A stretch of 63,907 bases of DNA, counting the filler, from Basidiobolus ranarum (Eukaryota): the NCBI GenBank assembly GCA_040143965.1. It is 3 parts of 3 records of this genome, joined end to end, with 100 filler letters (N's around TTAATTAATTAA, not from the genome) between each part and the next. Parts side by side here need not be neighbours in the genome. Positions count along the whole stretch, not along the records: positions 21,426 to 42,735 come from JASJQH010000209.1; 2 more parts are not named here. One strand, written 5' to 3'. This document shows, piece after piece, positions 26,128 to 54,398 of this stretch (its first letter is position 1; every line of letters begins with the position of its first letter). The translations under genes and the position numbers were made by a program. The notes under the pieces are model-generated. The model did not search any database. It saw only the letters and a list, made by a program, of their open reading frames with translations, and was not told where the DNA came from.

Positions 26128-27336
26128 TTACTTTTTTCTAAGTGTAAAATATATAACCACGGCTAGAGCAATCACAATCAGCAAAGCCACAAGAGCCATT
26201 ATTCGATATGTTGACCGATTACTTGAAATGAGTTCCTTACTCTTTTCAAGCTCGCCATTAGCATCGTTCAAATGATCGTTGGTGATCATAATCTTCTCTT
26301 CGACCTGCTGGATCGTCTCTTGTTGCTCTTCGACCATATCATGCACCTGTCTAAATAGTGAATCCAACTCGTTGATCATTCTCGTAATTTCGATGATATC
26401 TTGGTGGCGATCTTTTACTAGTTGTAAGGTTTGATTGGCTTCATTTTTTCTTAAAATCTAAGAAGTATAGAACAATTAGTTTCAGCGAAACCATGTCTAA
26501 CATTTTTTAGTAGTTCTCACTGCATTAGCAAAAACCTGACCACTAGGGTCTCTTTGGATATACTCCTCCACTTCATTGTCAGTCGCTTCAGGATTGACCA
26601 TAGCATAGTGACGTCTTAACATGTTCTTGTAATTCTCTTGACCAATTTGCTCCGTCTCTCGATACCTCCTTAGTGTATTTTCAAGCTGTGCTTTCGCGCT
26701 AGCACACTACAAAAGAGGGCTTTAGATCTTTATTCGGCAATAGAATAGTCAAAAAACTTACTCTTCGTCGACGAAGTTCAACATCGTCTGATTCAAGAAC
26801 GTTTCGATGAAGATCTATAATATAACATGATCAGGTTAGTTTCCCAACACTGTTTGGTCCAGAATTTTCAATTGACATAAATGTATCTTGTATGAGTAAT
26901 ACCTTTCAGATTGCTTTTACATTGCTCCAGCATAAAAGTAGTTTGAGCAGTTAATTCGCGTAATTTTGTTGAATTGGCTAGAGAAATAGAATTAGAGAAT
27001 TCCGAGAGATTTCTATTCGAATGTAAGTACCTGCTGATTCTTCGGCATTCAAAATATCAAGCGAATCTTGGTGGATTTCGTGAATAGCATCAATGTTATT
27101 TTCGATATTTATACGAAGAGCATTGAATTTCTCCAACTATGTTATAAGATATTGAGTATGTACTCTAGCCTTGTGTGATATGACTGTGCTACTGACCGCT
27201 CTATTAAACTCTATCCCAGACATGACTGTGGCAATTCCCTTTTCCATTTGACTTGGTGTCAAACCCTACAAACTCGAGATTTAGATTTGGGAAGAGAGTT
27301 ATGGCCCTTGTTGGTACTCACATTTCGAGCAGTCAT
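26128..27336 (-). CDS. Syntaxin (Qa-SNARE, Sso1-like), paralog 1, multi-exon
   Basis: Habc helices, RHYAMVNPEATDNEVE, SNARE motif RHQDI...ELDSLF...VEEQQE, C-terminal TM. Confidence 0.88.
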
Positions 27337-31166: not shown

Positions 31167-33391
31167 ATGGCCACTCCCTACAGGAGCTACCTCGCTCCAT
31201 TATGGATATTCTTATTACTATGTATTTGTCAACCCCCAGCTACCCTTGCAATCAAACAGACACTGGTACGTGAAATTTTTATTGTGAAGGACATGTTGCA
31301 AATGAACTTTGAGCGAACACGTTATCCTTTAGACTCAAGCAGATGAGTTCATGCCTTGCCAAGGAATGTATTCCAAATCCTCTATCCCCAATGGGGCTGA
31401 TGCTTACATTTCCTGTAGGTTTTATTTACATCCCTATTTTTATTAGTTATTTGTGTTATTTATCGACTATATTGCGTTATTTGTTTAGTGACCTTCTCAC
31501 CAGAGTCTGAAGGAAAAATATCCACTTTATTTTTTGAATGGAGTGATTTTGAAAACTTGGGCTTAGAAACTTCAGAAGATGGAAAAGTATATTAGATACA
31601 TAACTTACTTTCAAACCATACATTTGCTCACTGAGATTTTCAGAAAACCTATACTTGCGATGAACGTGCCGTTAGAGCAAATGCTTGTACGAAAGAAGAA
31701 CTAGGTTCTTTCATTCATCCCCCAGACGGACCCACTTCTATACAAGTGCAAAATATTATTTTAGGCCCCAAGGTTGATAAGAAAGCATACTTCATTGAGT
31801 ACCCAATTACTAGAACTGGTTACTATTGCGTCAGCGCGAAAGCAATTTCAGGTCATTTCTCTACTACTGTAGATTGGAGAAATCCTTTTGGCCAACTTGC
31901 TTCCTACGACTATCCCAAACTCCCGGTACTTAATTGACTTGATATTGTTCTGTCAAACATATTTCTAACACTGCAAGTGTCTATTCAAAGCTATACGGCC
32001 TTCTAGCAATTGTTTACTTAACTGTAGGGATCGTCTGGTCGATTGGAACCATTCGCTATTGGAGTGAGATTTTACCTGTTCAAGTAATTACTTTTAAATA
32101 TGACCTTCAGCTTATTCCGAGTTAACTCAACTCTTTTGAAGAATTATGTATCTGGATTGATAGCTGTTATAGCTATTGAAATGGGATTCACCTTTGGCTA
32201 TTGGCAGTACTATAACAAACATGGAGAAAAATGTAATATTCCCAATCTATCATCAGAATACTCAGTGTTCTAACCAAAAGCACAGCAATCTTCCTTTTGA
32301 TTATGAGTGTCATCTTTAATGCTGGTCGTGATAGTCTCTCCTTCTTCGTACTGTTAATTGTTTGCCTGGGATATGGTGTTGTTAAGTGAGTAATAATGTA
32401 TTTGTTGGACATAATTTATTTCGCTTACGCCTCTTTTCATAGGCCATCGCTTGGAAGCACAATGAGAAAATGTATAGCTCTTAGTATAGCCCATTTTATT
32501 TTCGGATGCATATATGCATCCAGCGCCGCTTTGAATTCCACCCAACCCGGAAGTCTTGTGGTTCTACTTGCTTCGTTGCCACTCTCACTAGTCTTTACGA
32601 CATTTTATGTTTGGATATCCTTTTAAATTCTCATTCAAATTGCTCACTACCATCATCACTTGTCATGAATGCCTTAACTTGCTCGTACATTCTCCAAGGT
32701 TTGACTAATACTATGCAGGAGCTAGTCGATAAAAAGCAAACAGTGAAGTTGACCATGTACAAATGGCTATGGAGACTGCTTGTTTTTTCCGGTGTTGTTT
32801 TGATTGTTTTCTTTGTGATCAATGTGATGAACTTCCGCTGGAGTGAAGACCCAGATTTGACATCGAAACGCTGGCAAATGGGATGGTTCATGATGGACGG
32901 TTATTTGAATGTTTTGTATTTCATTGTTTTCACCGGAATTATGATCCTATGGAGACCCACAAGCAACAACAGAAGATATCCTTTCATATTACCCTTTACT
33001 TTTGATATAATTGAAACTTGTCATGTTCCTTAACCACTCTCATACGTATGGTCTTCAGGAATTACCCTCCGAAGACGATGACGCCTTTGCGCCAGGTTCT
33101 GAAGAATACCGCGAGGATATTGGCTTCCGTAACCTTGGAGCCGAAAATCCCGAAGACGAACAATTCGATGCCATCTTTGATATTGGAGAGGAGCATGAGA
33201 ATTTTATGGAATGGGCTGGAGATGAAGAATCATTTGATGAGGAAAACGCCAAGAAGTAAGTTGTACCTTTTCCAATGCTAGTTGATCTTCACTTGAGAGC
33301 TCAACAATTACTTGCCATCAACTATAGACCTGAAGAGAGCAATAAGAACAAGCAACGTCAGCCTGATGAACAACCCGAAAGTCAAGCTTAA
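31167..33391 (+). CDS. PTM1/TMEM87-like GOST (lung seven-TM) Golgi protein, multi-exon
   Basis: Signal peptide, TGYYCV, WRNPFGQLASYDYPKLP, LPVQNY, NAGRDSLSFFVLLIV..GYGVV.PSL, LWRPTSNNRRY, acidic tail. Confidence 0.9.
32615..32688 (+). other. U12-type AT-AC intron
   Basis: 5' ATATCCTTT, branch GCCTTAAC, 3' AC; removal joins YVW|ILQG in frame. Confidence 0.9.
32976..33045 (+). other. U12-type AT-AC intron
   Basis: 5' ATATCCTTT, branch TTCCTTAAC, 3' AC; removal gives NNRRYGLQEL in frame. Confidence 0.92.
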
Positions 33392-33817
33392 TTTCATAAT
33401 CTAAAACATATATTTTATCAACCATCTACAAGATGCATCTTTATTCGTTTGCCTTACTATCTTTTTTTAGAAAGAAACCACATCTTTTCCAAGGTTCATT
33501 GATTGGTAACATTTGTAGCGGCCATTTGATTAAAAGTTGATGAAATCTACGCATCAAATGATAATAGGAGCATTCCAGCTAGAACAATAAAAATCGTTCA
33601 CACCATACTTTCACATAGAGAAGTAGGGTTTTTTTGGCCCCGAGTTAGGATTGTGCCGATTGGAATCACTTTGGGATAATATTAATATTCAATCCAATCC
33701 TATTTAATTTACTACTTAAGAATGCAAATTTCATCATGTCATGCCAAATCATGCCAACGCAATTTAAATTAAATCCATTCTGGAAAGATAAGGAACCGCC
33801 TCCCCCCAACACTGACA

Positions 33818-34648
33818 ATGGCCTTAGAATCAAGTACACCTGTTAAGCGTATTGAGTTTCTTTCCCCGGAAGGAATAACTCTCTCGGCCTTGCTCACTGA
33901 GAAGACTAATGCACCTTCTAACCAGGTTGTTATACTTTGTCACGGCTTTTTGAATCATTCGAACTCCAGTATCATCCGTGGGCTGACCAGCCAACTTCCC
34001 TATAATATTTGCGCCGTTGATTTTCGTGGTAACGGATTTAGCACGGGAACTACAAAGTATGGAAATTATCTTGAAGAAGTGGTGGACTTGAAAAACTGGG
34101 TAGACCATCTAAGAGACGCTTTAAACTTTAAAGTGTTGGGCATCGTTGGGCATTCTAAGGGTGGCTCAGTAGTGTTACTCTATGCGTCAAAATACAACCA
34201 GGTTCCATTGATAGTTAATATAGCTGCCAGGTTTGATATGTCTGACTTGCCTATGCATAGATTTACTGCGGAACAGTTGACGGAACTAGAGGAGAAGGGA
34301 TGTTTTGTTTGGCGTAAATACAAGCACAATACCGAAGAAAAAGATTTCATTGTCAGTCAGATGGATCTAACGACCAAGAAAAACACAGATATGTCGGTGG
34401 TGAAGAATGTTGACAAAGAACGTGTTCGCGTTCTCTCTGTCCATGGTGAGGAAGATACCATCATACCAGTGGAAGAAGTCAAGATGTATGATCAACTTAT
34501 GGGGCCGAAGCCTCATCATGAAGTTGCTGTCATCACAGAGGCTAGCCATTTCTTCCGAACACCTGAGGAGCAAAAAGAGCTGAGTCAAGCAATCATCAAT
34601 TGGATGGACAAATACTTCAATTGGGCTCAAGATATCTTATTCAATTAG
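33818..34648 (+). CDS. Alpha/beta hydrolase (esterase-like), intronless
   Basis: ILCHG, DFRGNGFS, GHSKG nucleophile elbow, HGEED, terminal catalytic H (ASHFF). Confidence 0.9.
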   Translation: MALESSTPVKRIEFLSPEGITLSALLTEKTNAPSNQVVILCHGFLNHSNSSIIRGLTSQLPYNICAVDFRGNGFSTGTTKYGNYLEEVVDLKNWVDHLRDALNFKVLGIVGHSKGGSVVLLYASKYNQVPLIVNIAARFDMSDLPMHRFTAEQLTELEEKGCFVWRKYKHNTEEKDFIVSQMDLTTKKNTDMSVVKNVDKERVRVLSVHGEEDTIIPVEEVKMYDQLMGPKPHHEVAVITEASHFFRTPEEQKELSQAIINWMDKYFNWAQDILFN

Positions 34649-35396: not shown

Positions 35397-36930
35397 ATGA
35401 GCAGAGACCGCTTAGCAGGTTTAAAGGTAAAATATCATCAAACTTGTCTATCCTTATTAGGCTAACTAATTTATTAAAGAGTGGATATGCCAACTTAGAA
35501 GACCATGGGGCTTTGGAACTGGGAAGTATTCAACATGACCCTACTACCTCTCTTAATACGTTTCTCGAAGAGGTATGCTAATAGTAACCATTAAAAAAAA
35601 TAGAAAATCATACTAATTCCGTTTACTTGGTACAGGTAACAGAAATAGAAGATGTCATCGCACTTTTTCAACAAAACGTGAAAAAGATTCAAGATCTTCA
35701 TACTAATGTACTGGATGCAGTTAGTGAAGAGCAAACAAATTGTAACTCAAATCACGTATTTATTCTCTCTGTCTTCATTTTCTAATATAAGAACTCTGAC
35801 TATACTTAGCCATCAGTAAACAAACAGATAAACTGGTGTCTGAAACTTTTCAACTGGGAAATAATGTGAAGGAGCGGTTAAAGAGTATGTTTTCACTTCA
35901 TGAGCTCGTTCTTCATTACGCAAACAATCTTGCTGACGCTTTTTCTTTAGCTATGAATTTAGCCAACAGAAAAGCTACTGGTGGACCTGGTCAAGTTCAA
36001 ATAAGAAGGAATAAGGTATAGTTCTCATTGAGTGAATTTTCAAATATTAATAATCCATTCATTGAATTGAATCTAACCTTTCATATGTATGTTTAGTACC
36101 AAGCATTACAGGAAAAATTTGTAGAAGCCATCAAAAGCTATCAAAAGGTAGAGTATGAGTCCAGATCCCGATACAGGGAAAGAATGGAGAGACAATATCG
36201 TATTGGTAAGTGACTATTAACTCCGAATATGAGATGCTTTCGATTATGGAATCTTCATTTTGTATTCATAACTCTTATAAATTGACATAGTCAAACCTGA
36301 CGCCTCTGAAGAAGAAATAGACAAGGTGTTGGATGAAGATGGTGGAAATCAACTCTTTGCTCAAGCAGTAAGTACTATCTTATGACTTACACATTACGTG
36401 CTCCAAATACTGACACAATTATAGTTAATGAGTTCCTCAAGATCTTCCGACGCACGAGACGTTTTAAGAGAAGTTCAGAGTAGACACGATGACATCAAAA
36501 AGATAGAAAAAAGCATTGTGGTATAGCATTAATTTGAACCAAAATCAACATTGTTTCGAAACATCGGCTTGACCTCCACGTTCAATTTGGCACTCTTTAG
36601 GAACTTGCTCGTTTATTCGAAGAAATGCAAACTTTAATCACACTTCAAGACGAGATGATACATCAGATTGATGATCAGATGGAAGCGACAGTAACTCATG
36701 GCGTTGAAGCGAACAAACAGATGGATCAAGCGATAGTGTATGCAGAAGCTAGTAGAAAGGTTAGATATAGCTTTGATTCCGTCAATGATTGGAATCGATG
36801 ATTATTGACCATCTCTCACGTTGTTCTACCTATCTAGAAAAAGTGGTGCTTGCTTATATTTTTCTTATTGCTAATTATAATCATTGCACTTGTTGTATAC
36901 TTTACCCAGTTCCGCAAGCCCACACAATAG
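35397..36930 (+). CDS. Syntaxin (Sso1/2-like), paralog 2, multi-exon
   Basis: MSRDRL N-peptide, RMERQYRIVKPDASEEEI, EVQSRHDDIKKIEKSIVELARLFEEM...Q, SRKKKW plus TM. Confidence 0.93.
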
Positions 36931-37609: not shown

Positions 37610-39058
37610 ATGGTAAAGCACTTTCCATTAACGATTTCTTGAATCTCTCATATAATCTCAATGTTGCCCTCACTCTTTTAAGTATGGAACCAATCGAAAT
37701 GGTAAAGAAGTTCCGGCTGATGCATTTTGGGATGAGGTAAATTCACATTATTCTTACCTGATACGCTTATTTACCTATCGATCACTAATGCTTGCTCTAG
37801 TATTCAAGACTGGATACGACTATCCAGATGATCGAGAACCATGTCAAAAGCATCGAAGGAATCCGTTCTCAGATGTTAGAAGCGCTTTCTGAGTCTGAGC
37901 AAGCCCGTATCCTTTTAAATCGAACCTAGAATATGGATAGAAGCTGTTGGATATGTTTTCTTTAACACGACACCATTTTCTTATAGAATATTCTAAAAGG
38001 TTGAATATCTTGGTAACAGAAACGTCACAAATGATGATGAACGTGCGAAGCAGAATTCAAGGTATTTTATTGGACTCTTCAGACTGTCACGCCGATCAGT
38101 GAAATGGTTAACACGTTTTACTCGCTTGATTAAGCCATAGAAGAACTTTCCAAAAACCCCTCTACAGCACCATCGAATTTGAAAGCGTTTCGTAACCGAG
38201 TAAGTAACAGTTTGCCGATCTCGCCTCCTTCTCCGATTAACTTATCTTTGTTTGCTTATTGTAGCTTTTGGGGCTTCGGGAGAAACTCAAGAATGCATTG
38301 CTGGAGTATCAGAGAATACAGCACAAGTATGATGAGGAGCATAAGGAAACCATCATTAGGCAGTATGAGATTGGTAACGAGTGTGATATCTATCACATTG
38401 CAACCCCAACCGCAACTGAATTCTCTTCTTTGACATAGTTAATCCTGATGCTACCCGTGATGAAATCGATGCCATGGTTAATGATTCAGATTACCAGCAG
38501 GTTTTCGCCCAGGCGGTAAAGTCCAGGTTCAGATAAAGATATGTATGTACATACTCCCTCATCAGAATTTTATATAGGTTCTTCAGAGCAATCGTAAAGA
38601 ACATGCAATCCGTGTATTAGAAGCTGTACAGAGTAGAGACAAAGACATTCAAAAAATCCATGATAGTGTTTTGGTATGCAGAATATCGACCTGATTTCTG
38701 ATGGCATTTGAACTCTGGCTCTGACCTTTGATCCAATGACAATATAGGAATTGGCCCAACTGTTTCAACAAATTGATCTAATGATTGAAACCCAAGGAGC
38801 TGTCATCGTCGACGTCGAGAATACAACTGCACAAGTAGTAGAGCATCAAGCGCAAAGTCAGCAGATCCTGGAGAAAACTGAGGGATTATTAAAGAAACTC
38901 CGGCAGGTAGGTTGTCTGAAAGGTATATGACTACGTACCTGAAACTAATACTCTGTTTCCAGAAAAAGCTGATTCTGTTGAGCATTGCATTGATCATCAT
39001 TATACTGATTGTCGTTACTGTGGTCGTCCTCACTAGACCTAAGAGCGCTAGTTCATGA
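37610..39058 (+). CDS. Syntaxin, divergent paralog 3, multi-exon
   Basis: RQYEIVNPDATRDEI, QQVFAQAVLQ, VQSRDKDIQKI...ELAQLFQQ...ETQG, C-terminal TM. Confidence 0.88.
37907..37986 (+). other. U12-type GT-AG intron in syntaxin 3
   Basis: 5' GTATCCTTT, branch-like TTTCTTTAAC ~20 nt before TAG; phase-1 splice restores the frame (QA Q YSKRL). Confidence 0.8.
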
Positions 39059-39690
39059 TTGGTCTCCATCCTTCTTTTCCTTTTTATACATTGCTATGTT
39101 TTCATAGCTAAATTTATATATAGCAGTAGGACGAGTAAATAGTGTACACAATATCCAATCATCTTTTAATCTGCCAAATATGCCTTCAAGCTCTCTTTAG
39201 CTTGACATCGCTGCTCTCAACATCTCTTTCACTCAGCAGGATCACCCAGCATTCATCCCACCAAATTCATTGCCAATCAACTACGGCTAACCATATCCTT
39301 CCAAATTTGATCACTATTTGCACATAAGGAAATAAAGTTGATAGGTTCGAAACATTGTGACTTCTGACCGCCGACCACTCAGGAAATCCATTAATTATCG
39401 TTACCATAATCGGTTCGAGACTTGAGCGATGTCTGGTAATTATTTTTTACCGCTTCTAAGGCAATTCGATTTCGAGATTTTGGGTGCGTTTGGTATGGAA
39501 CATTCGTTGGATCAAATTTGGAAATCCTTAAAACAATTAGCAAAAAAAAAAATTCCATTTAAAAAGCCAGTAAAGTCCCATTCCTAGATCTTACTTTTAG
39601 ATTTTCCTGTAATAGATTTCTTGTATTTTGGCTGGTCTAACCTTGAAATTTCCCTCGTAGTAGCACAAAAGTCTTTTCGGTTTATTATTC

Positions 39691-40655
39691 ATGTCTACAT
39701 CTTTGGATCTGAATCTCCCCTTACAAACTCCCAGCATTGTACCTCACTTCGACACCAGTAGTTTGGACTTCGGCTTCAGTCTAACTCAGGAAGACCTTTT
39801 ACGTGTTAAAGCTCACTTTGTCAGTGAGATTAAAAGTGGACTTTCCAATGCTGGTTCAAGTCTGGCTATGCTCCCTGGTTATATTTCTTCCCTTCCTACT
39901 GGTGAAGAAACGGGTAGATTTTTACTGGTTATGATTAACGAGGCGACCCTTGGAGTTGGCGCTGTCACATTCTTAGGTGGTCGAAAATATGAGCTTACTC
40001 TACAAAAATACGTGGTCGATGCACACGTTAGAGAAAATGCGAAGAACCTGTTTGATTTCTTGGCCAAATGTTTGGCTTCTTTATTGAACGAACTCCATAT
40101 TCCTCTGAACTCCAATTTACCACTTGCTGCTAGTCTAGCATTCCCATTGAGGTTAGTTTTAACATCCCTATTTCCTCTCTATTCCAAATCATTAACCATG
40201 GGTCATTTTAGAAATCAAGATTTTGGGAAAACTCAGGTTATCTCTTCCTGTAAGGGTTTCAAAGTTCCTGGCTTATTGAGTAAGGATGTAGCCGAGTTGC
40301 TCTTTGAAGCATTGCAACGAAAGGTATTTCGTAGTTCCTTTCAACCTCTTACTTAATACAATAACTAACTCCTAATTTCAGAACATTTTAGTGGATATCT
40401 TAACCATCCAAAACGACACGGTGACTAGTCTTCTTGCACATGCCTATTCTGTTTGCTCACAGACCACCATTGGCTGTTTCATTGATTCCGGTGTAAATAT
40501 TGCTTATCTCGATTCATTGGAACAGTTGCCCAAATGGAAATCTCTCTTGGGAGTAGATAAAATGATTTTCAACACTGAATGTGGAGGATATAATGTTGAA
40601 GGTGCACAGATCAAACGTAACAAACTTGATATCAGAGTAGATCTAGAGTCATCAA
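39691..40655 (+). CDS. Divergent hexokinase-like gene, 3' truncated
   Basis: LAMLPGYISSLPTGEETGRFL, LFDFLAKC, KGF, NDTV.SLLAHAY, NTE.G; homology ends at ~40655 where transposon DNA begins. Confidence 0.8.
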
Positions 40656-42835: not shown

Positions 42836-43983
42836 GACTCTTTCCAACTTCCCCCTGGGGGGGACATGTGATTACTGATGTAATCAGCAAACTTACAACT
42901 ACTACCAACTCAATCCCCCAGCAAGACCCAGATTCCAGAATTTGCCCACCACCGAACACTGTCACTAGGTGATTAACCAAATTTAGGATATTCTTAATAT
43001 GTAAAGATCAATAGAGTTGGGGACAGCAAATAACTTGACAACAGGATCTCTTACCTTCTTCAATTGTTCGGTCAATGCCATCTGTTACCAACTTAATAGT
43101 TTCTAGCTCGGTGGTATAGAGACGGTTGGTTCCGTATTGACAGTATTTGTGGCATAGACGTATGAGAAATCTCCAATGAATCGCGTGTAGCCTTATTGGC
43201 CATGTACTTGTCAAAGCCTCTGGTTAAGAATAAGTAAGTCAAGAGAGAATACTGTTAGGGTTAGGAGAAAATAATCTCACGATTTGCTTAAATAGATATT
43301 TTGTTTTCAGCAACGGCAATGGAAAGTAGATATACTCATTATACCAAAAGGTGACTTGGGCAATTGAGAACATTAACTAGCATCGTAGATGCCAATGATT
43401 GACTTCACTCTCATGGCCTGATTTCTAAATCTAAAGAGACTCTGCTCATCAAGCCTCCTAATTTCACATTTATGATTCATGCCTTGGGTGTAGAAGCAAA
43501 TCCCTGGGAATATGGAGTATCCACTTGCTAAACAGTTTACCATCCCATGCACCAGCTGGTTACCCCTGCTGGATTGGTTTGGACATGGACAGATGTTTGA
43601 CAGTGAAGCGCAGTATCGATGTTGAGAGGTATCTTGATTGATCAAAACAAGCATTGGTAATCTCCTTATCTAGTCATCAGTTTGTAAATCCCAGAATTCA
43701 ACGTGAGAAACTTGAGAACATCTAATCCTAAACCGCATTGCTATCCTTAGCTCCAGGTGCTTTCAATTATTCGTATGATGAATAATAATGATGATGGTAT
43801 ATTGCACATCAGTTACACGAATCGTGGAGTCGGCATCATCATTGGTTGGTTTCATTTCGCTCAGTTGCTTTATTTGAGACTTGGGCATGGGAAAGCATAC
43901 TAGTATTGATTGGTCAAAAGTGATGATTTGGCTTTAGCTAGGTATTTCTCAAGTAACTTCTAAATATTTTCCCTTCATTTCCA

Positions 43984-45411
43984 ATGTTAAAGCTTTTTGG
44001 TAAAACAAAATTCAACGGTGGCTTTACTCCACTCAATACGCTTTGTTCAGCTGCTAAGAACCGTATTTACCTGAGGTCTAATATTCTTCCTTTGGCTTCT
44101 CAAGTGAAGTCAACATCAACTCAGGCTGGTAGTACGGATAAGACCTCAATTAAACCAGCTACTCGTGTTGGCAAAGCGGAGCTCGATGTTTGGACTATGT
44201 TTAATATGGCCGCTACTGAATTTGAGGCAGTTAACCTCGGTCAAGGCTTCATGAATTTCCCTGCTCGTGATTTTGTTAAAGAAGCTGCTCGTTCAGCAAT
44301 CCTAGATGACGCTTGCAACCAATATGCTCCTCCTCGTGGTAGACCAAGATTGAGAAATGCTCTTGCAAAAGCTTACGGTGGCTTGTTTGAACGTTCTCTT
44401 CACGCCGATTCTGAAATCCTTGTGACTGCCGGTGGGAATGAAGGCTTATTATCTATTTTTATGGCTTACCTGGACCCTGGAAGTGAAGTTATTTTGATGG
44501 AGCCAGCTTTTGATCAGTATATGCCAAATATCACAATGGCAGGTGCTATCCCTGTGTTTGTTCCTCTCAAACCCCGTGAAGGTGTTGACCCCACCACTTC
44601 CAATATCTCTTCTAAGGATTGGGTACTTGATATTGAGGAACTCAAGAGTAAGATAACATCCCGTACAAAAATCATTGTCCTAAATACTCCACACAATCCC
44701 ATTGGCAAAGTATTCAGTCGTGGCGAACTAGAAGCTCTTGGTAAAGTTGCCGAAGAACATAATTTACTTATTGTCAGTGATGAAGTATATGACCGTCTAG
44801 TATTTGATGACCAGGAGCATATTCCCATTGCGACTATACCCGGTTTGTGGGAACGGACTTTGACGGTTGCTAGTGCTGGGAAAGCTTTTGGTGTTACCGG
44901 TTGGCGTGTTGGGTGGGTTATTGGTCCCGAAAAGCTTGTCTCTCCTGCACTTGCCACTCATACTCGCATCGTTTTTTGTGTTTCATCACCAATGCAAGAG
45001 GGTATTGCTAGTGCCTTTGAGCAAGCAGAAACCAATGAATTTTTTGACCAGCAACGTGAAGACTATATTAACCGCCGTAATAAACTAACCAGCGCTTTTG
45101 ATGCAGTCAATCTCCCGTACACAATCCCACAAGGTTCTTATTTTCTCTTAGTTAACGCAGAACGTCTTCTTAAAAAGATTCCGGATGATTATCCATTCCC
45201 TGAGCACATTACTGCTAGAGGTAAAAACTATGAGCTCTGTTACTTCTTCACACGTGAGATAGGAGTAAGCTGTATTCCACCCACTGAATTTTATTGCGAA
45301 GAAGATCGTCACTTGGCTGAAAACTATGTTCGTTTCGCCTTTTGCAAAACCGACGACATCCTTGATGAAGCTGCCAAGCGTCTTCTTAAAGTAAATAAGT
45401 GGCTTAACTAG
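43984..45411 (+). CDS. Class I PLP aminotransferase, kynurenine aminotransferase (Bna3/KAT)-like, with mitochondrial-type presequence
   Basis: NLGQGF, NQY, NTPHNPIGK, SDEVY, SAGKAFGVTGWRVGW, RFAFCK; basic N-terminal extension. Confidence 0.92.
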   Translation: MLKLFGKTKFNGGFTPLNTLCSAAKNRIYLRSNILPLASQVKSTSTQAGSTDKTSIKPATRVGKAELDVWTMFNMAATEFEAVNLGQGFMNFPARDFVKEAARSAILDDACNQYAPPRGRPRLRNALAKAYGGLFERSLHADSEILVTAGGNEGLLSIFMAYLDPGSEVILMEPAFDQYMPNITMAGAIPVFVPLKPREGVDPTTSNISSKDWVLDIEELKSKITSRTKIIVLNTPHNPIGKVFSRGELEALGKVAEEHNLLIVSDEVYDRLVFDDQEHIPIATIPGLWERTLTVASAGKAFGVTGWRVGWVIGPEKLVSPALATHTRIVFCVSSPMQEGIASAFEQAETNEFFDQQREDYINRRNKLTSAFDAVNLPYTIPQGSYFLLVNAERLLKKIPDDYPFPEHITARGKNYELCYFFTREIGVSCIPPTEFYCEEDRHLAENYVRFAFCKTDDILDEAAKRLLKVNKWLN

Positions 45412-50878: not shown

Positions 50879-51893
50879 TCAAAATAGAATCACTTCAGGG
50901 GATAGTAAAGCTTGTGAGTATGAAGGTAAATACTCTTCCACCGTCTCGATCGGAGGCATAATAATCAGCGAACATTTTAGCACAATCGATTTAACTTTGC
51001 TCTTAGCTTCGAATAATATACAAATCTCTAGTTGATGCTTCACCGATATGAGGTCGTTGCTCATATCTGGAGTGATCCTGGGCTGGCAAGGAATTTTTAC
51101 ATAGAGAAGCTTGCTCACCAAGGAGGGTGGATCAGAAACAGAGTCTTCTCTCAAGGGGAACCAACGCTCCATCGATCCTTTCTTTCCAGCCAACTTCTCG
51201 AATAGCCCAAATTTCACCCCCAAAATTTTGACATGAGTAAACAAGGGCCATAAATTGAACTCTATGGGAAGTTTCTGCCCCAAGGTCACTACTTTTCGAT
51301 CGATCGTCATTTGATATTCTAGATGTTCTGGCCAGCTATTACTCATCATTATAGAATCGAAAAGGTCAACCTCGTTAGAAACGTGATAGCGATTCACTAT
51401 GATCTTCTTATGTGATCGTATTTTAGTATGAAGCCCAAACCCTGGCTTCTTCAACACTGAAGTCAAAGAGTATTTGACGGCTAACAAGCGAGTTTCTACA
51501 CTCTCGGCCATATCACCACATACGGTAATCTCGAAGGGGAAAGTATGAGTTCCCGCGGGGAGGGTAATTGAAGTTTCATGTTCGATACCGAGGAGTACGG
51601 ACTTCCACAGAGTCTGTGTACTCACCGAAGTCAAGGACCATATTTTGTAATCTATCAATCGAAATCAAGAGCGTTAAATTCATTTGGAATCTGTGAGAAA
51701 TACGACTAGACTACCTACCATATTTGTGAAGCTTCGAGCTTAAACTTAAAGAGAGGGAAATAATCTTGGTGGGCTTTTTCAAGTGAAGTAAGACATGTCC
51801 AGTTAGAAGAATATCCGGAGCATCCAGTGCTCCTCCCATCAACGTAATGTTGGTCTTGGATGGGTGAATTTCCAACGCTGTTATTTCAGTCAT
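50879..51893 (-). CDS. Alpha-arrestin (ART-like) 1, 2 exons
   Basis: LTGHVLLHLKKPTKI, LPAGTHTFPFEI, arrestin-C domain, LPSY PY motif. Confidence 0.85.
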
Positions 51894-53391: not shown

Positions 53392-54398
53392 TCAGTAGAG
53401 AACCAATCTAGGGGTTAATAGCGCTTGTGTGTATGTAGGCAGCTGGTCTTCAGTTTCATCAAAGGGCATGGTGATGACTAGCTCACATTTGAGTCTAATT
53501 GAGTTGATCTTTTCAGCCACAGTGAAAATAACCCTCATCTCCAATTTGTGTTCCACTTGGATTAGCTGATTTTTCAAGTCCGGAAAGACTCTAGATCGAT
53601 AGGGGATGTGAACCTGAATAAACAGGCACCTATTAACTGACGAATTCGATACGATATCATTTTTGACCGGCAACCAACGCTCCAATTTTCCATTCTTACT
53701 AACGACTTTCTCCAATATTCCCGACTTGACTTCCAGAATCTTCACCTCCTCGCCCAATGGTCGCCATGTAAACTCCACTGGGAGATTCTGCCCCAAAGTG
53801 GCTAATTTGGTGTCGAGCAGCATCTCGTACTCGAGATACTTCGGCCAACGGTTGGTGACCACAACCCTATTTAGCTCATTTATCTCCTCTTCGGCTGTTC
53901 TGTACACTTGGATCTTTTTGGAACTATGTAGGGAAGTACCTATACCGAATCCTGGTTTCTTCAAAACTGTTACTAGGGAATATTTAACACTCACGAAGTC
54001 ACTAATCAAGCTATCTGGTAAATCCTTGTGCAGCGGTATCTCAAAAGGGAATTTATGAGTTCCCAGTGGGAGCGTAATCGATGGATCCTCCTCAGCTGCA
54101 AGTAGTACAGCTTTCCACACAACTGTGGGTGTGACAGGCTTTATAGCTGATAATCCTAGTAAAGAGAATATCGATAAGTATATGGATACGATATTTGTGA
54201 CAGAGCACCTCTCAAAGACTTACCGTGTTCGTTAACTCTGGACTCGAAACGCAGGGTGAGCGATATGATTTTGGTAGGCTTATTGTTGATTCGTAGGAAT
54301 ACGTTTCCCGTCAATACTCCACCGGTCACGTTGACATTGGAGTTGACCAACCTAACCTTATCACTAACAGGACATATCTTCAACATGGAAGAATTCAT
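53392..54398 (-). CDS. Alpha-arrestin (ART-like) 2, 2 exons
   Basis: Paralog of 50879-51893: LPLGTHKFPFEIPL, VLKKPGFG, LPTY PY motif. Confidence 0.85.

What the first reader, a model, noticed from the sequence alone, without database searches (positions are those of the whole stretch)
37907..37986. Minor-to-major intron class switch visible among three neighbouring syntaxin paralogs
Seen: all three syntaxins have an exon of exactly 35 codons + 1 nt followed by a phase-1 intron. In paralog 3 this intron has a U12 signature (GTATCCTTT, TTTCTTTAAC branch). The same intron in paralog 2 (35742-35809: GTAACT, CTGAC branch) and paralog 1 (27030-26978, minus: GTACTT, CTAAT branch) looks U2-type. Known: U12-to-U2 conversion is the commonly described direction of class change. 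Inference: duplicates of a gene carrying a minor intron diverged in which spliceosome they use, so only one paralog would depend on minor-spliceosome activity.
Basis: partly seen in the sequence, partly recalled or inferred. Interest (0 to 1): 0.8.

Follow-up and report, generated by a model that had tools for sequence, protein, structure and literature searches.

The report
Minor-type intron in one syntaxin paralog
One of three neighbouring syntaxin genes of the fungus Basidiobolus ranarum carries a rare minor-spliceosome (U12-type) intron exactly where its two relatives have ordinary introns; this is real, but it is a familiar kind of intron-type change, and its direction is not proven.

Summary
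Three syntaxin (Qa-SNARE) genes each have a 106-nt exon (35 codons + 1 nt) followed by a phase-1 intron and a 75-nt exon. My spliced models of paralogs 2 and 3 equal public Basidiobolus ranarum proteins letter for letter.

Intron 37907-37986 matches the U12 5' splice-site consensus at 9 of 9 positions. It has a branch-site 9-mer one mismatch from consensus, ending 20 nt before the intron's last base. The other 23 introns of the three genes reach at most 7 of 9 and 3-4 mismatches. Two AT-AC U12-type introns lie 5 kb upstream in a GOST-family gene, one with a junction seamless in the Pfam profile. The congener B. meristosporus is reported to have the highest minor-intron density among fungi.

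A U12/U2 class difference between the paralogs is therefore well supported (about 0.9). The direction is not shown: the protein trees are unresolved and no outgroup gene structure could be obtained. No RNA reads, genome or snRNA search were available.

It is a new member of a known kind, of moderate interest.

The parts
37610..39058 (+). Syntaxin paralog 3 (public locus tag K7432_005367), 10 coding exons including a first exon that is only the start codon (37610-37612).
   Evidence: The model has a translation identical to public protein P0165 (279 aa). Pfam Syntaxin PF00804 scores 49.5 bits against a cut-off of 26.7 on the shorter isoform P0001.
37801..37906 (+). 106-nt exon (35 codons + 1 nt) before the intron in question.
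   Evidence: It aligns without a gap to the equivalent exon of paralog 2. The sister-locus protein is identical at 33 of 36 residues.
37907..37986 (+). Candidate U12-type (minor) GT-AG intron, 80 nt, phase 1.
   Evidence: Retaining it gives a stop 7 codons after the last whole codon of the exon (frame 0).
37907..37915 (+). 5' splice site matching the U12-type consensus at 9 of 9 positions.
   Evidence: 9/9, against at most 7/9 in the other 23 introns; it is the only 1 of 6,702 GT sites in the window with this 9-mer.
37958..37966 (+). Branch-site-like 9-mer, one mismatch from the U12 consensus, ending 20 nt before the last base of the intron.
   Evidence: the best match has 1 mismatch, and the other 23 syntaxin introns have 3 or 4. 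One search gives the distance.
37953..37955 (+). ATG inside the intron. It is the start of the second public isoform (P0001, 236 aa), which reads through the 3' splice site.
   Evidence: translation from 37953 equals the first 20 residues of P0001; both isoforms carry the same locus tag.
35397..36930 (+). Syntaxin paralog 2 (K7432_005366), 10 exons. The internal exon sizes 106, 75, 65, 109, 77, 96 and 159 nt are identical to those of paralog 3.
   Evidence: The model is identical to public protein P0003.
35742..35809 (+). Homologous phase-1 intron of paralog 2, U2-like.
   Evidence: It matches the U12 5' consensus at 4/9 and the U1-type consensus at 5/9. Its best U12 branch match has 3 mismatches.
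26128..27336 (-). Syntaxin paralog 1, 7 exons. It shares the 106- and 75-nt exons. Its 186-nt exon equals 109 + 77 nt of the other two, so an intron was lost.
   Evidence: my model only, not checked against an annotation. SNARE domain hit of 21.7 bits on the last exon, below the cut-off of 26.8.
26978..27030 (-). Homologous phase-1 intron of paralog 1, U2-like.
   Evidence: It matches the U12 5' consensus at 3/9 and the U1-type consensus at 7/9. Its best U12 branch match has 3 mismatches.
32615..32688 (+). Context evidence: an AT-AC U12-type intron (74 nt) in the neighbouring GOST-family seven-transmembrane gene.
   Evidence: 5' 9-mer and a branch motif with 1 mismatch ending 10 nt before the last intron base. 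The flanking exons match Pfam GOST_TM profile positions 99-156 and 157-246, end to end. Retention gives stops.
32976..33045 (+). Context evidence: a second AT-AC U12-type intron (70 nt) in the same gene.
   Evidence: 5' 9-mer and a branch motif with 0 mismatches ending 11 nt before the last intron base. Removal keeps the frame open into the acidic tail, and retention gives a stop.

Best explanation
Intron 37907-37986 is a genuine GT-AG U12-type (minor-spliceosome) intron of a Basidiobolus ranarum plasma-membrane-type syntaxin gene.

Inferred mechanism:
- Its 5' splice site is read by U11 and its branch site by U12 snRNA.
- The intron at the same codon position and phase in the two neighbouring paralogs is read by U1/U2.
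- The ancestral syntaxin gene carried this intron before the duplications.
- The more likely history is that the ancestral intron was U12-type and was converted to U2-type in the lineages of paralogs 1 and 2, with paralog 3 and its sister-locus copy keeping it.
- When the intron is not removed, the reading frame stops after 7 codons. The only long reading frame left starts inside or after the intron and lacks the first part of the N-terminal regulatory domain. This is what the second public isoform looks like.

Shown here: the positions, the signals, the equality with public protein models, and the presence of AT-AC introns nearby.

Inferred: which spliceosome acts, the direction of change, and that the second isoform reflects retention.

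The class difference itself I put at about 0.9. The direction U12-to-U2 I put at about 0.6 to 0.65 given the class difference. The confidence below is for the whole statement.
For: 1. The intron is real and its ends are right.
- The spliced model equals public protein P0165.
- Paralog 2, with the same exon sizes, equals P0003.
- The sister-locus protein P0164 aligns over 279 of 279 residues without a gap. It is identical at 51 of 54 residues upstream of the split codon and at 193 of 224 downstream. The upstream exons are therefore conserved as coding.

2. The signals are U12-type.
- The 5' site matches at 9/9, against at most 7/9 in the other 23 introns.
- The 9-mer follows 1 of 6,702 GT sites in the window.
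- The branch 9-mer has 1 mismatch, against 3-4 in the other 23 introns.
- The base before the intron is C, not G.

3. Minor splicing is used in this genome. Two AT-AC introns with the same 5' 9-mer and branch motifs of 0-1 mismatch lie in the GOST gene, and one has a junction seamless at Pfam profile positions 156|157.

4. The congener is minor-intron rich.
- B. meristosporus is reported with 249 minor introns (0.554%), the highest density in fungi (passages of PMC10639083).
- A second survey reports 237 minor introns. It also reports U11, U12 and U6atac genes in several zoopagomycote species, and a putative divergent U4atac in B. meristosporus (passages of PMC11347168).

5. Direction. Published surveys hold that conversion runs almost always U12-to-U2 and mostly in the GT-AG subtype. 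One survey found 87 mixed clusters and a single U2-to-U12 case (passages of PMC2831892).

6. Isoforms. Both paralog-3-type loci have a second, N-terminally short public isoform tied to this intron (2 of 2). Neither paralog-2-type locus has a second member in its 90% cluster (0 of 2). This fits the slow removal typical of minor introns (recalled knowledge).
Against: - No RNA reads, no whole genome and no snRNA search were possible for this organism. No trained classifier was run.
- The branch motif ends 20 nt before the intron's last base, against 10 and 11 nt in the two AT-AC introns. That is long for a U12 intron.
- The pyrimidine content before the 3' site (0.67) is the same as in the U2-type introns.
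- Branch regions ending in the same five letters occur in two ordinary introns of the same gene, 38062-38134 and 38200-38264. The branch motif is therefore less telling than its mismatch count suggests.
- Complementarity to U1 (4 of 9) is low but equals that of two ordinary introns, 36521-36600 and 26520-26458.
- On direction, two of three paralogs are U2-type, so a U12 ancestor needs two conversions unless the root lies on the paralog 3 branch.
- The trees leave the order unresolved.
- The published reconstruction gives a low ancestral minor-intron density for Zoopagomycota, although Basidiobolus is rich. This leaves room for gain in this lineage.
- The second isoforms could come from internal transcription starts or from a gene predictor rather than from retention.
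Confidence: 0.58

Rival explanations
1. The class difference is real but the direction is the reverse. The ancestral intron was U2-type, and in the paralog 3 lineage its 5' splice site drifted into the U12 consensus. The existing branch region, already compatible with U12 pairing, was co-opted. This would be a U2-to-U12 conversion, that is, a gain of a minor intron.
For: - Only 1 of 3 paralogs in the window is U12-type, so a single change suffices.
- The long branch-to-3' distance (20 nt) and the ordinary pyrimidine content look like a U2-type 3' half.
- A similar branch region occurs in ordinary introns of the same gene.
- Paralog 3 is a very long branch with relaxed or changed constraint: stem length 2.37 changes per column, and only 1 protein at E <= 1e-30 among 2,144 hits.
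- Basidiobolus is minor-intron rich although the reconstructed Zoopagomycota ancestor is poor.
- One U2-to-U12 case is documented in Diptera.
Against: - Published surveys find such gains extremely rare compared with U12-to-U2 conversion.
- Gain needs about six specific 5' positions to be fixed while splicing is maintained.
- The authors of the reconstruction flag its caveats.
- The AT-AC introns in the neighbouring GOST gene show that this genome does hold typical U12-type introns. Mouse Tmem87a and Tmem87b are minor-intron genes and would be members of that family by my recollection, but whether the introns are orthologous was not tested.
Confidence: 0.27
2. There is no class difference. The intron only resembles a U12-type intron and is removed by the major spliceosome, whose 5' site requirements in this fungus are loose.
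For: - U2-type 5' sites in these genes are degenerate, and two have as little U1 complementarity as this one.
- The 3' half looks U2-like.
- The 8-letter 5' motif is not enriched in the window as a whole.
Against: - The 9-letter 5' motif occurs at 3 places in the window, and all 3 are intron starts with a branch motif of at most 1 mismatch. The two AT-AC ones cannot be ordinary U2-type sites.
- My rough estimate, from the 24 introns and the GT-site count, is about 1 in 7,000 for the 5' match alone by chance.
- None of the 23 other introns comes close on either signal.
Confidence: 0.08
3. It is a hybrid intron that either spliceosome can remove: a minor-type 5' site with a 3' half usable by both. 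Dependence on the minor spliceosome would then be partial.
For: - The 3' half has features of both types.
- The published taxonomy describes minor-like and hybrid classes, only a small share of which respond to minor-spliceosome inhibition.
Against: - The base before the intron is C and the 5' site matches U1 poorly.
- In the published work, a G at the boundary is what is thought to lessen reliance on the minor spliceosome.
Confidence: 0.06

Closest known systems
Minor (U12-type) introns catalogued in Basidiobolus meristosporus (Larue and Roy 2023, PMC10639083; Olthof et al. 2024, PMC11347168; passages read, supplements closed)
   Same: Same genus. The signals are GT-AG and AT-AC U12-type, in old, intron-rich housekeeping genes. 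Minor snRNA genes are reported for the group.
   Different: This is B. ranarum, for which I saw no catalogue. Whether the orthologous syntaxin intron is already in those papers' supplementary lists could not be checked. No paralog-3-type protein from B. meristosporus appeared in my searches.
U12-to-U2 conversion at homologous intron positions (Burge et al. 1998, as described in Lin et al. 2010, PMC2831892)
   Same: Introns at the same codon position and phase in homologous genes differ in class. The U12 copy is of the GT-AG subtype, the subtype reported to convert most often.
   Different: Here the comparison is among old paralogs within one fungal genome (26-30% identity). There is no outgroup, so the direction is assumed, not shown.
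U2-to-U12 conversion in the dipteran URP gene CG3294 (Lin et al. 2010)
   Same: It would be the same kind of event if the rival reading is right.
   Different: In that case the U2 sites are still active as a twintron. In the paralog 3 intron, any 5' site further downstream would include an in-frame stop, so no such second pair of sites is apparent.
AT-AC minor intron of animal syntaxin 6 (STX6/Syx6; table in Lin et al. 2010)
   Same: A SNARE gene with a minor intron.
   Different: By recalled classification it belongs to a different SNARE subfamily, Qc, whereas this gene is a Qa plasma-membrane-type syntaxin. It is also of the AT-AC subtype. Homology of position was not tested and is unlikely.

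Membership tests
U12-type (minor) intron | 5' splice site matching the extended U12 consensus from +1 to +9 | tested here: met
   The match is 9 of 9, against at most 7 of 9 in the other 23 introns. It is the only 1 of 6,702 GT sites in the window with this 9-mer. The consensus itself is recalled.
U12-type (minor) intron | Branch-site consensus close to the 3' end | tested here: met
   The 9-mer at 37958-37966 has 1 mismatch, a C-to-T change that would still wobble-pair (inference). The other 23 introns have 3-4 mismatches.
U12-type (minor) intron | Short branch-to-3'-site distance (typically about 10-15 nt; recalled) | tested here: inconclusive
   The motif ends 20 nt before the last intron base, against 10 and 11 nt in the two AT-AC introns. 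By recollection this is inside the tolerated range but atypical.
U12-type (minor) intron | No strong polypyrimidine tract | tested here: inconclusive
   The pyrimidine fraction at -18 to -4 is 0.67, within the range of the U2-type introns here (0.40-0.87).
U12-type (minor) intron | The intron is removed at these exact ends | tested here: met
   The spliced translation is identical to public protein P0165. The sister-locus protein shows the same junction and conserved upstream exons. These are annotations and conservation, not reads.
U12-type (minor) intron | The organism has U11, U12, U4atac and U6atac snRNAs | not testable with these tools
   No genome is held, and there were 0 Rfam hits in the window. 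Indirect support comes from two AT-AC U12-type introns in the window. The literature also reports U11, U12 and U6atac in several zoopagomycote species and a putative divergent U4atac in B. meristosporus.
U12-type (minor) intron | Splicing depends on the minor spliceosome | not testable with these tools
U2-type intron (homologous introns of paralogs 1 and 2) | No U12 5' or branch consensus; GT-AG ends with a U2-like branch motif and pyrimidine-rich 3' end | tested here: met
   The U12 5' match is 3/9 in paralog 1 and 4/9 in paralog 2. The U1-type match is 7/9 and 5/9. The best U12 branch match has 3 mismatches in both.
Intron class conversion between homologous genes | Same codon position and phase in homologous genes | tested here: met
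   A 106-nt exon, a phase-1 intron and a 75-nt exon occur in all three genes. The protein alignment is ungapped across the junction for paralogs 2 and 3.
Intron class conversion between homologous genes | Direction polarised by an outgroup | not testable with these tools
   - No eukaryotic genomes were on hand.
- The first metagenome scan found nothing.
- The second gave mostly intron-free transcript contigs.
- Three genomic-looking loci (L075-L077) have no intron at the site.
- The trees are unresolved.
Syntaxin (Qa-SNARE) | Syntaxin N-terminal domain, SNARE motif and C-terminal membrane anchor | tested here: met
   - PF00804 scores 49.5 bits against a cut-off of 26.7 on P0001.
- PF05739 and PF00804 are precomputed for paralog 2.
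- SNARE hits on single exons fall below the cut-off because they are fragments.
- A hydrophobic tail and the central glutamine are visible in the alignment. The criterion for these last two features is recalled.

The most novel reading that the evidence does not exclude
The paralog 3 intron is a recent U2-to-U12 conversion. An ordinary intron of a fast-evolving syntaxin duplicate acquired the minor 5' splice site and co-opted its existing branch region. [quoted passage not shown] It would mean that Basidiobolus owes part of its minor-intron richness to gain rather than retention.
Probability: 0.27. Interest if true: 0.65.

Novelty: new member of a known kind. Interest (0 to 1): 0.35.

Why it matters
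Minor introns are rare and slow to splice, and it is debated whether they are regulatory or neutral relics. A genome that holds homologous introns of both classes in neighbouring paralogs offers a built-in control. The same position, phase and gene family can be compared for splicing efficiency, retention and response to loss of the minor spliceosome.

Basidiobolus is the fungal genus reported as richest in minor introns, while its phylum's reconstructed ancestor is poor. Polarising cases like this one would help decide whether the genus gained or kept them.

In practice, the short second public isoform of K7432_005367 should be read as a likely intron-retention product and not as a distinct protein.

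The phenomenon itself, a class difference at homologous positions, has been known since the late 1990s. The finding extends a known pattern and does not open a new one.

Tried and rejected
- Whole genome of the window: none is held, so there was no snRNA search and no genome-wide intron background.
- Rfam on the window at gathering thresholds: 0 matches. This is uninformative, since snRNA genes need not lie here.
- Earlier notes of this scan: nothing on this genome or on look-alikes. A word search gave only two human U12 cases with no bearing here.
- U1-complementarity count as a discriminator: rejected. The candidate scores 4/9, and so do two ordinary introns.
- Metagenome scan with the paralog 3 protein: 597 pattern matches, none a relative.
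- Metagenome scan with a 14-protein alignment:
  - 251 stretches matched, 152 were relatives and 80 loci were kept.
  - 73 of the 80 show one long uninterrupted match, so they are probably transcripts or intron-free genes.
L075, L076 and L077 read straight through the site, so they have no intron there and cannot polarise the change.
- Protein trees:
  - The quick tree had 66 rows: 62 library hits of 240-420 aa taken in order of protein id, the three models and P0002.
  - The careful tree had 35 hand-picked rows.
  - Both leave the order of paralogs 1, 2 and 3, the B. meristosporus psy1-like protein and two Coemansia proteins unresolved. Paralogs 1 and 3 are very long branches.
- Paper searches for the source and method of the B. 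ranarum annotation found nothing usable. Whether the two isoforms rest on transcripts is therefore unknown.
- Other sites with a loose U12-like signature (5530, 39293, 43629, 4915, and on the minus strand 38542 and 15071) were not pursued. Their 5' sites are weaker or they have no coding support.

Full report
**What the window is.** One exon of paralog 3 matched at 100% a public protein named 'hypothetical protein K7432_005367 [Basidiobolus ranarum]'. The window is therefore from this zoopagomycote fungus. G+C is 33-42%. All evidence therefore comes from the window, protein databases and papers.

**Checking the observation.**
- I read the three regions and built exon models.
- All three genes have a 106-nt exon (35 codons + 1 nt), a phase-1 intron and a 75-nt exon.
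- Paralogs 2 and 3 share every internal exon size (106, 75, 65, 109, 77, 96, 159 nt).
- Paralog 1 has fused 109 + 77 into one 186-nt exon and has a single long last exon, so it has lost 3' introns.
- The paralog 2 model is identical to public protein P0003.
- The paralog 3 model is identical to public protein P0165, a 279-aa isoform of K7432_005367.
- The paralog 1 model was not checked against an annotation.
- The proteins are syntaxins. Pfam Syntaxin scores 49.5 bits against a cut-off of 26.7, and SNARE plus Syntaxin domains are precomputed for paralog 2. They are only 26-30% identical to each other.

**Is the paralog 3 intron U12-type?**
- Its 5' site matches the recalled U12 consensus at 9 of 9 positions. 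The other 23 introns of the three genes match at 2 to 7 of 9.
- The 8-letter motif is not enriched in the window: 7 found against 6.27 expected, and 41 of 100 shuffles reach 7.
- The 9-letter form follows 1 of 6,702 GT sites and 2 of 12,104 AT sites. All three occurrences are starts of frame-consistent introns.
- Near the 3' end lies a 9-mer one mismatch from the U12 branch consensus. The other 23 introns have 3 or 4 mismatches.
- The base before the intron is C.

Points against:
- The branch motif ends 20 nt before the last intron base, against 10 and 11 nt in the two AT-AC introns.
- The pyrimidine content upstream of the 3' site is ordinary.
- Two ordinary introns of the same gene have branch regions ending in the same five letters.
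- U1 complementarity (4 of 9) is shared with two ordinary introns.

I could not run a trained classifier. My rough odds use the published density of about 0.5% as the prior and about 1 in 7,000 for the 5' match by chance. They favour U12-type by well over ten to one.

**Does this fungus use the minor spliceosome?**
- Five kb upstream, a gene of the GOST seven-transmembrane family has two introns with AT-AC ends. Both have the same 5' 9-mer and branch motifs of 1 and 0 mismatches.
- For the first (32615-32688), the upstream exon matches Pfam GOST_TM profile positions 99-156 up to its last residue. The downstream exon matches 157-246 from its first residue. The junction is therefore exact.
- The upstream exon, taken as a fragment, scores 20.8 bits, below the cut-off of 25.2. 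The downstream exon scores 68 bits.
- Retaining either intron gives stops.
- Passages of Larue and Roy 2023 give B. meristosporus 249 minor introns (0.554%), the highest density in fungi.
- Passages of Olthof et al. 2024 give 237 minor introns for B. meristosporus. They also report U11, U12 and U6atac genes in several zoopagomycote species, and a putative divergent U4atac in B. meristosporus.
- None of this is a search of the B. ranarum genome itself.

**Is the intron spliced?**
- The public 279-aa isoform equals the spliced model.
- A second locus, K7432_007639/007640, repeats the paralog 2-paralog 3 tandem.
- Its 279-aa protein P0164 aligns to paralog 3 without a gap. It is identical at 51 of 54 residues before the split codon and at 193 of 224 after it. 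The upstream exons are therefore under coding constraint.
- If the intron stays in, the frame stops after 7 codons.
- Both paralog-3-type loci also have a short public isoform. P0001 (236 aa) starts at an ATG at 37953 inside the intron and reads through the 3' site. P0002 (210 aa) starts at a methionine just after the intron.
- Neither paralog-2-type locus has a second member in its cluster.
- This pattern fits retention of a slowly spliced minor intron. I could not find how the annotation was made, so this remains an inference.

**Direction of the change.**
Passages of Lin et al. 2010 and of Larue and Roy 2023 support that as the usual direction, especially for GT-AG minor introns, with one documented reverse case.
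- In this locus nothing polarises it. A library search found 2,144 syntaxin relatives at E <= 0.001, but only one at E <= 1e-30, and that is the sister-locus copy.
- No B. meristosporus orthologue of paralog 3 appeared.
- In a quick tree of 66 rows, the three paralogs fall with a B. meristosporus psy1-like protein and two Coemansia proteins in a clade with 93% SH-aLRT, unstarred.
- In a careful tree of 35 rows, their order is an open polytomy. Paralogs 1 and 3 have branches of 3.3 and 2.4 changes per column.
- Metagenome scans gave no usable outgroup gene structure.
- With one U12 and two U2 copies, a U12 ancestor needs two conversions unless the root lies on the paralog 3 branch, while a U2 ancestor needs one rare gain.
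- The low reconstructed minor-intron density of the Zoopagomycota ancestor and the U2-like 3' half of the intron keep the gain reading alive.
- I put retention plus conversion at about 0.6 and gain at about 0.27.

**Comparison with what is known.**
- Class differences at homologous intron positions, and the U12-to-U2 route, have been described since Burge et al. 1998 (recalled, and as summarised in the passages).
- Minor introns in Basidiobolus are published at the genus level.
- The only syntaxin minor intron I found in print is the AT-AC intron of animal syntaxin 6. Search one search returned 3 papers, and the table was read. One search found no mention of syntaxin in the main text of Olthof et al. 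2019.
- Supplementary tables, which may list a Basidiobolus syntaxin intron, were closed.

**Verdict.** The class difference is well supported by sequence, and the direction and the functional dependence are unproven. It is a new member of a known kind and of moderate interest, mainly as a natural within-genome control for minor against major splicing.

Noticed in passing
window 32615-32688 and 32976-33045 (+): Two AT-AC U12-type introns lie in one GOST-family seven-transmembrane gene. Mouse Tmem87a and Tmem87b are reported as minor-intron genes; that they belong to this family is my recollection. These could therefore be ancient conserved minor introns. Orthology of position was not tested.
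   Followed up: partly
window 37953 (+); proteins P0001, P0002, P0164, P0165: Both paralog-3-type loci of B. ranarum carry two public isoforms. One is full-length at 279 aa. The other is a short form that starts inside or just after the U12-type intron. This pattern is expected from intron retention.
   Followed up: partly
outside the window: locus tags K7432_007639/007640 (proteins P0004, P0164): The paralog 2-paralog 3 tandem is present a second time in the genome on another contig, at 92% and about 88% protein identity. A further paralog-2-like copy is K7432_007782.
   Followed up: partly
window 26128-27336 (-): Paralog 1 has lost introns towards its 3' end: one exon of 186 nt equals 109 + 77 nt, and the last exon is 330 nt. 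It is an extremely long branch in the trees.
   Followed up: partly
window 37610-37612 (+): The first coding exon of paralog 3 is just the start codon, followed by a 70-nt intron. The public protein models of both paralog-3-type loci agree.
   Followed up: yes
window 5530, 39293, 43629 (+): Further sites have a loose U12-like 5' motif plus a branch-like motif. They have no coding support or a weak 5' site.
   Followed up: no
window 50879-51664 and 53392-54219 (-): Two neighbouring open frames both carry arrestin N and C domains, so they are probably tandem duplicates. Other long frames are a hexokinase (39664-40356), a class I/II aminotransferase (43957-45411) and an alpha/beta hydrolase (33773-34648).
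   Followed up: no
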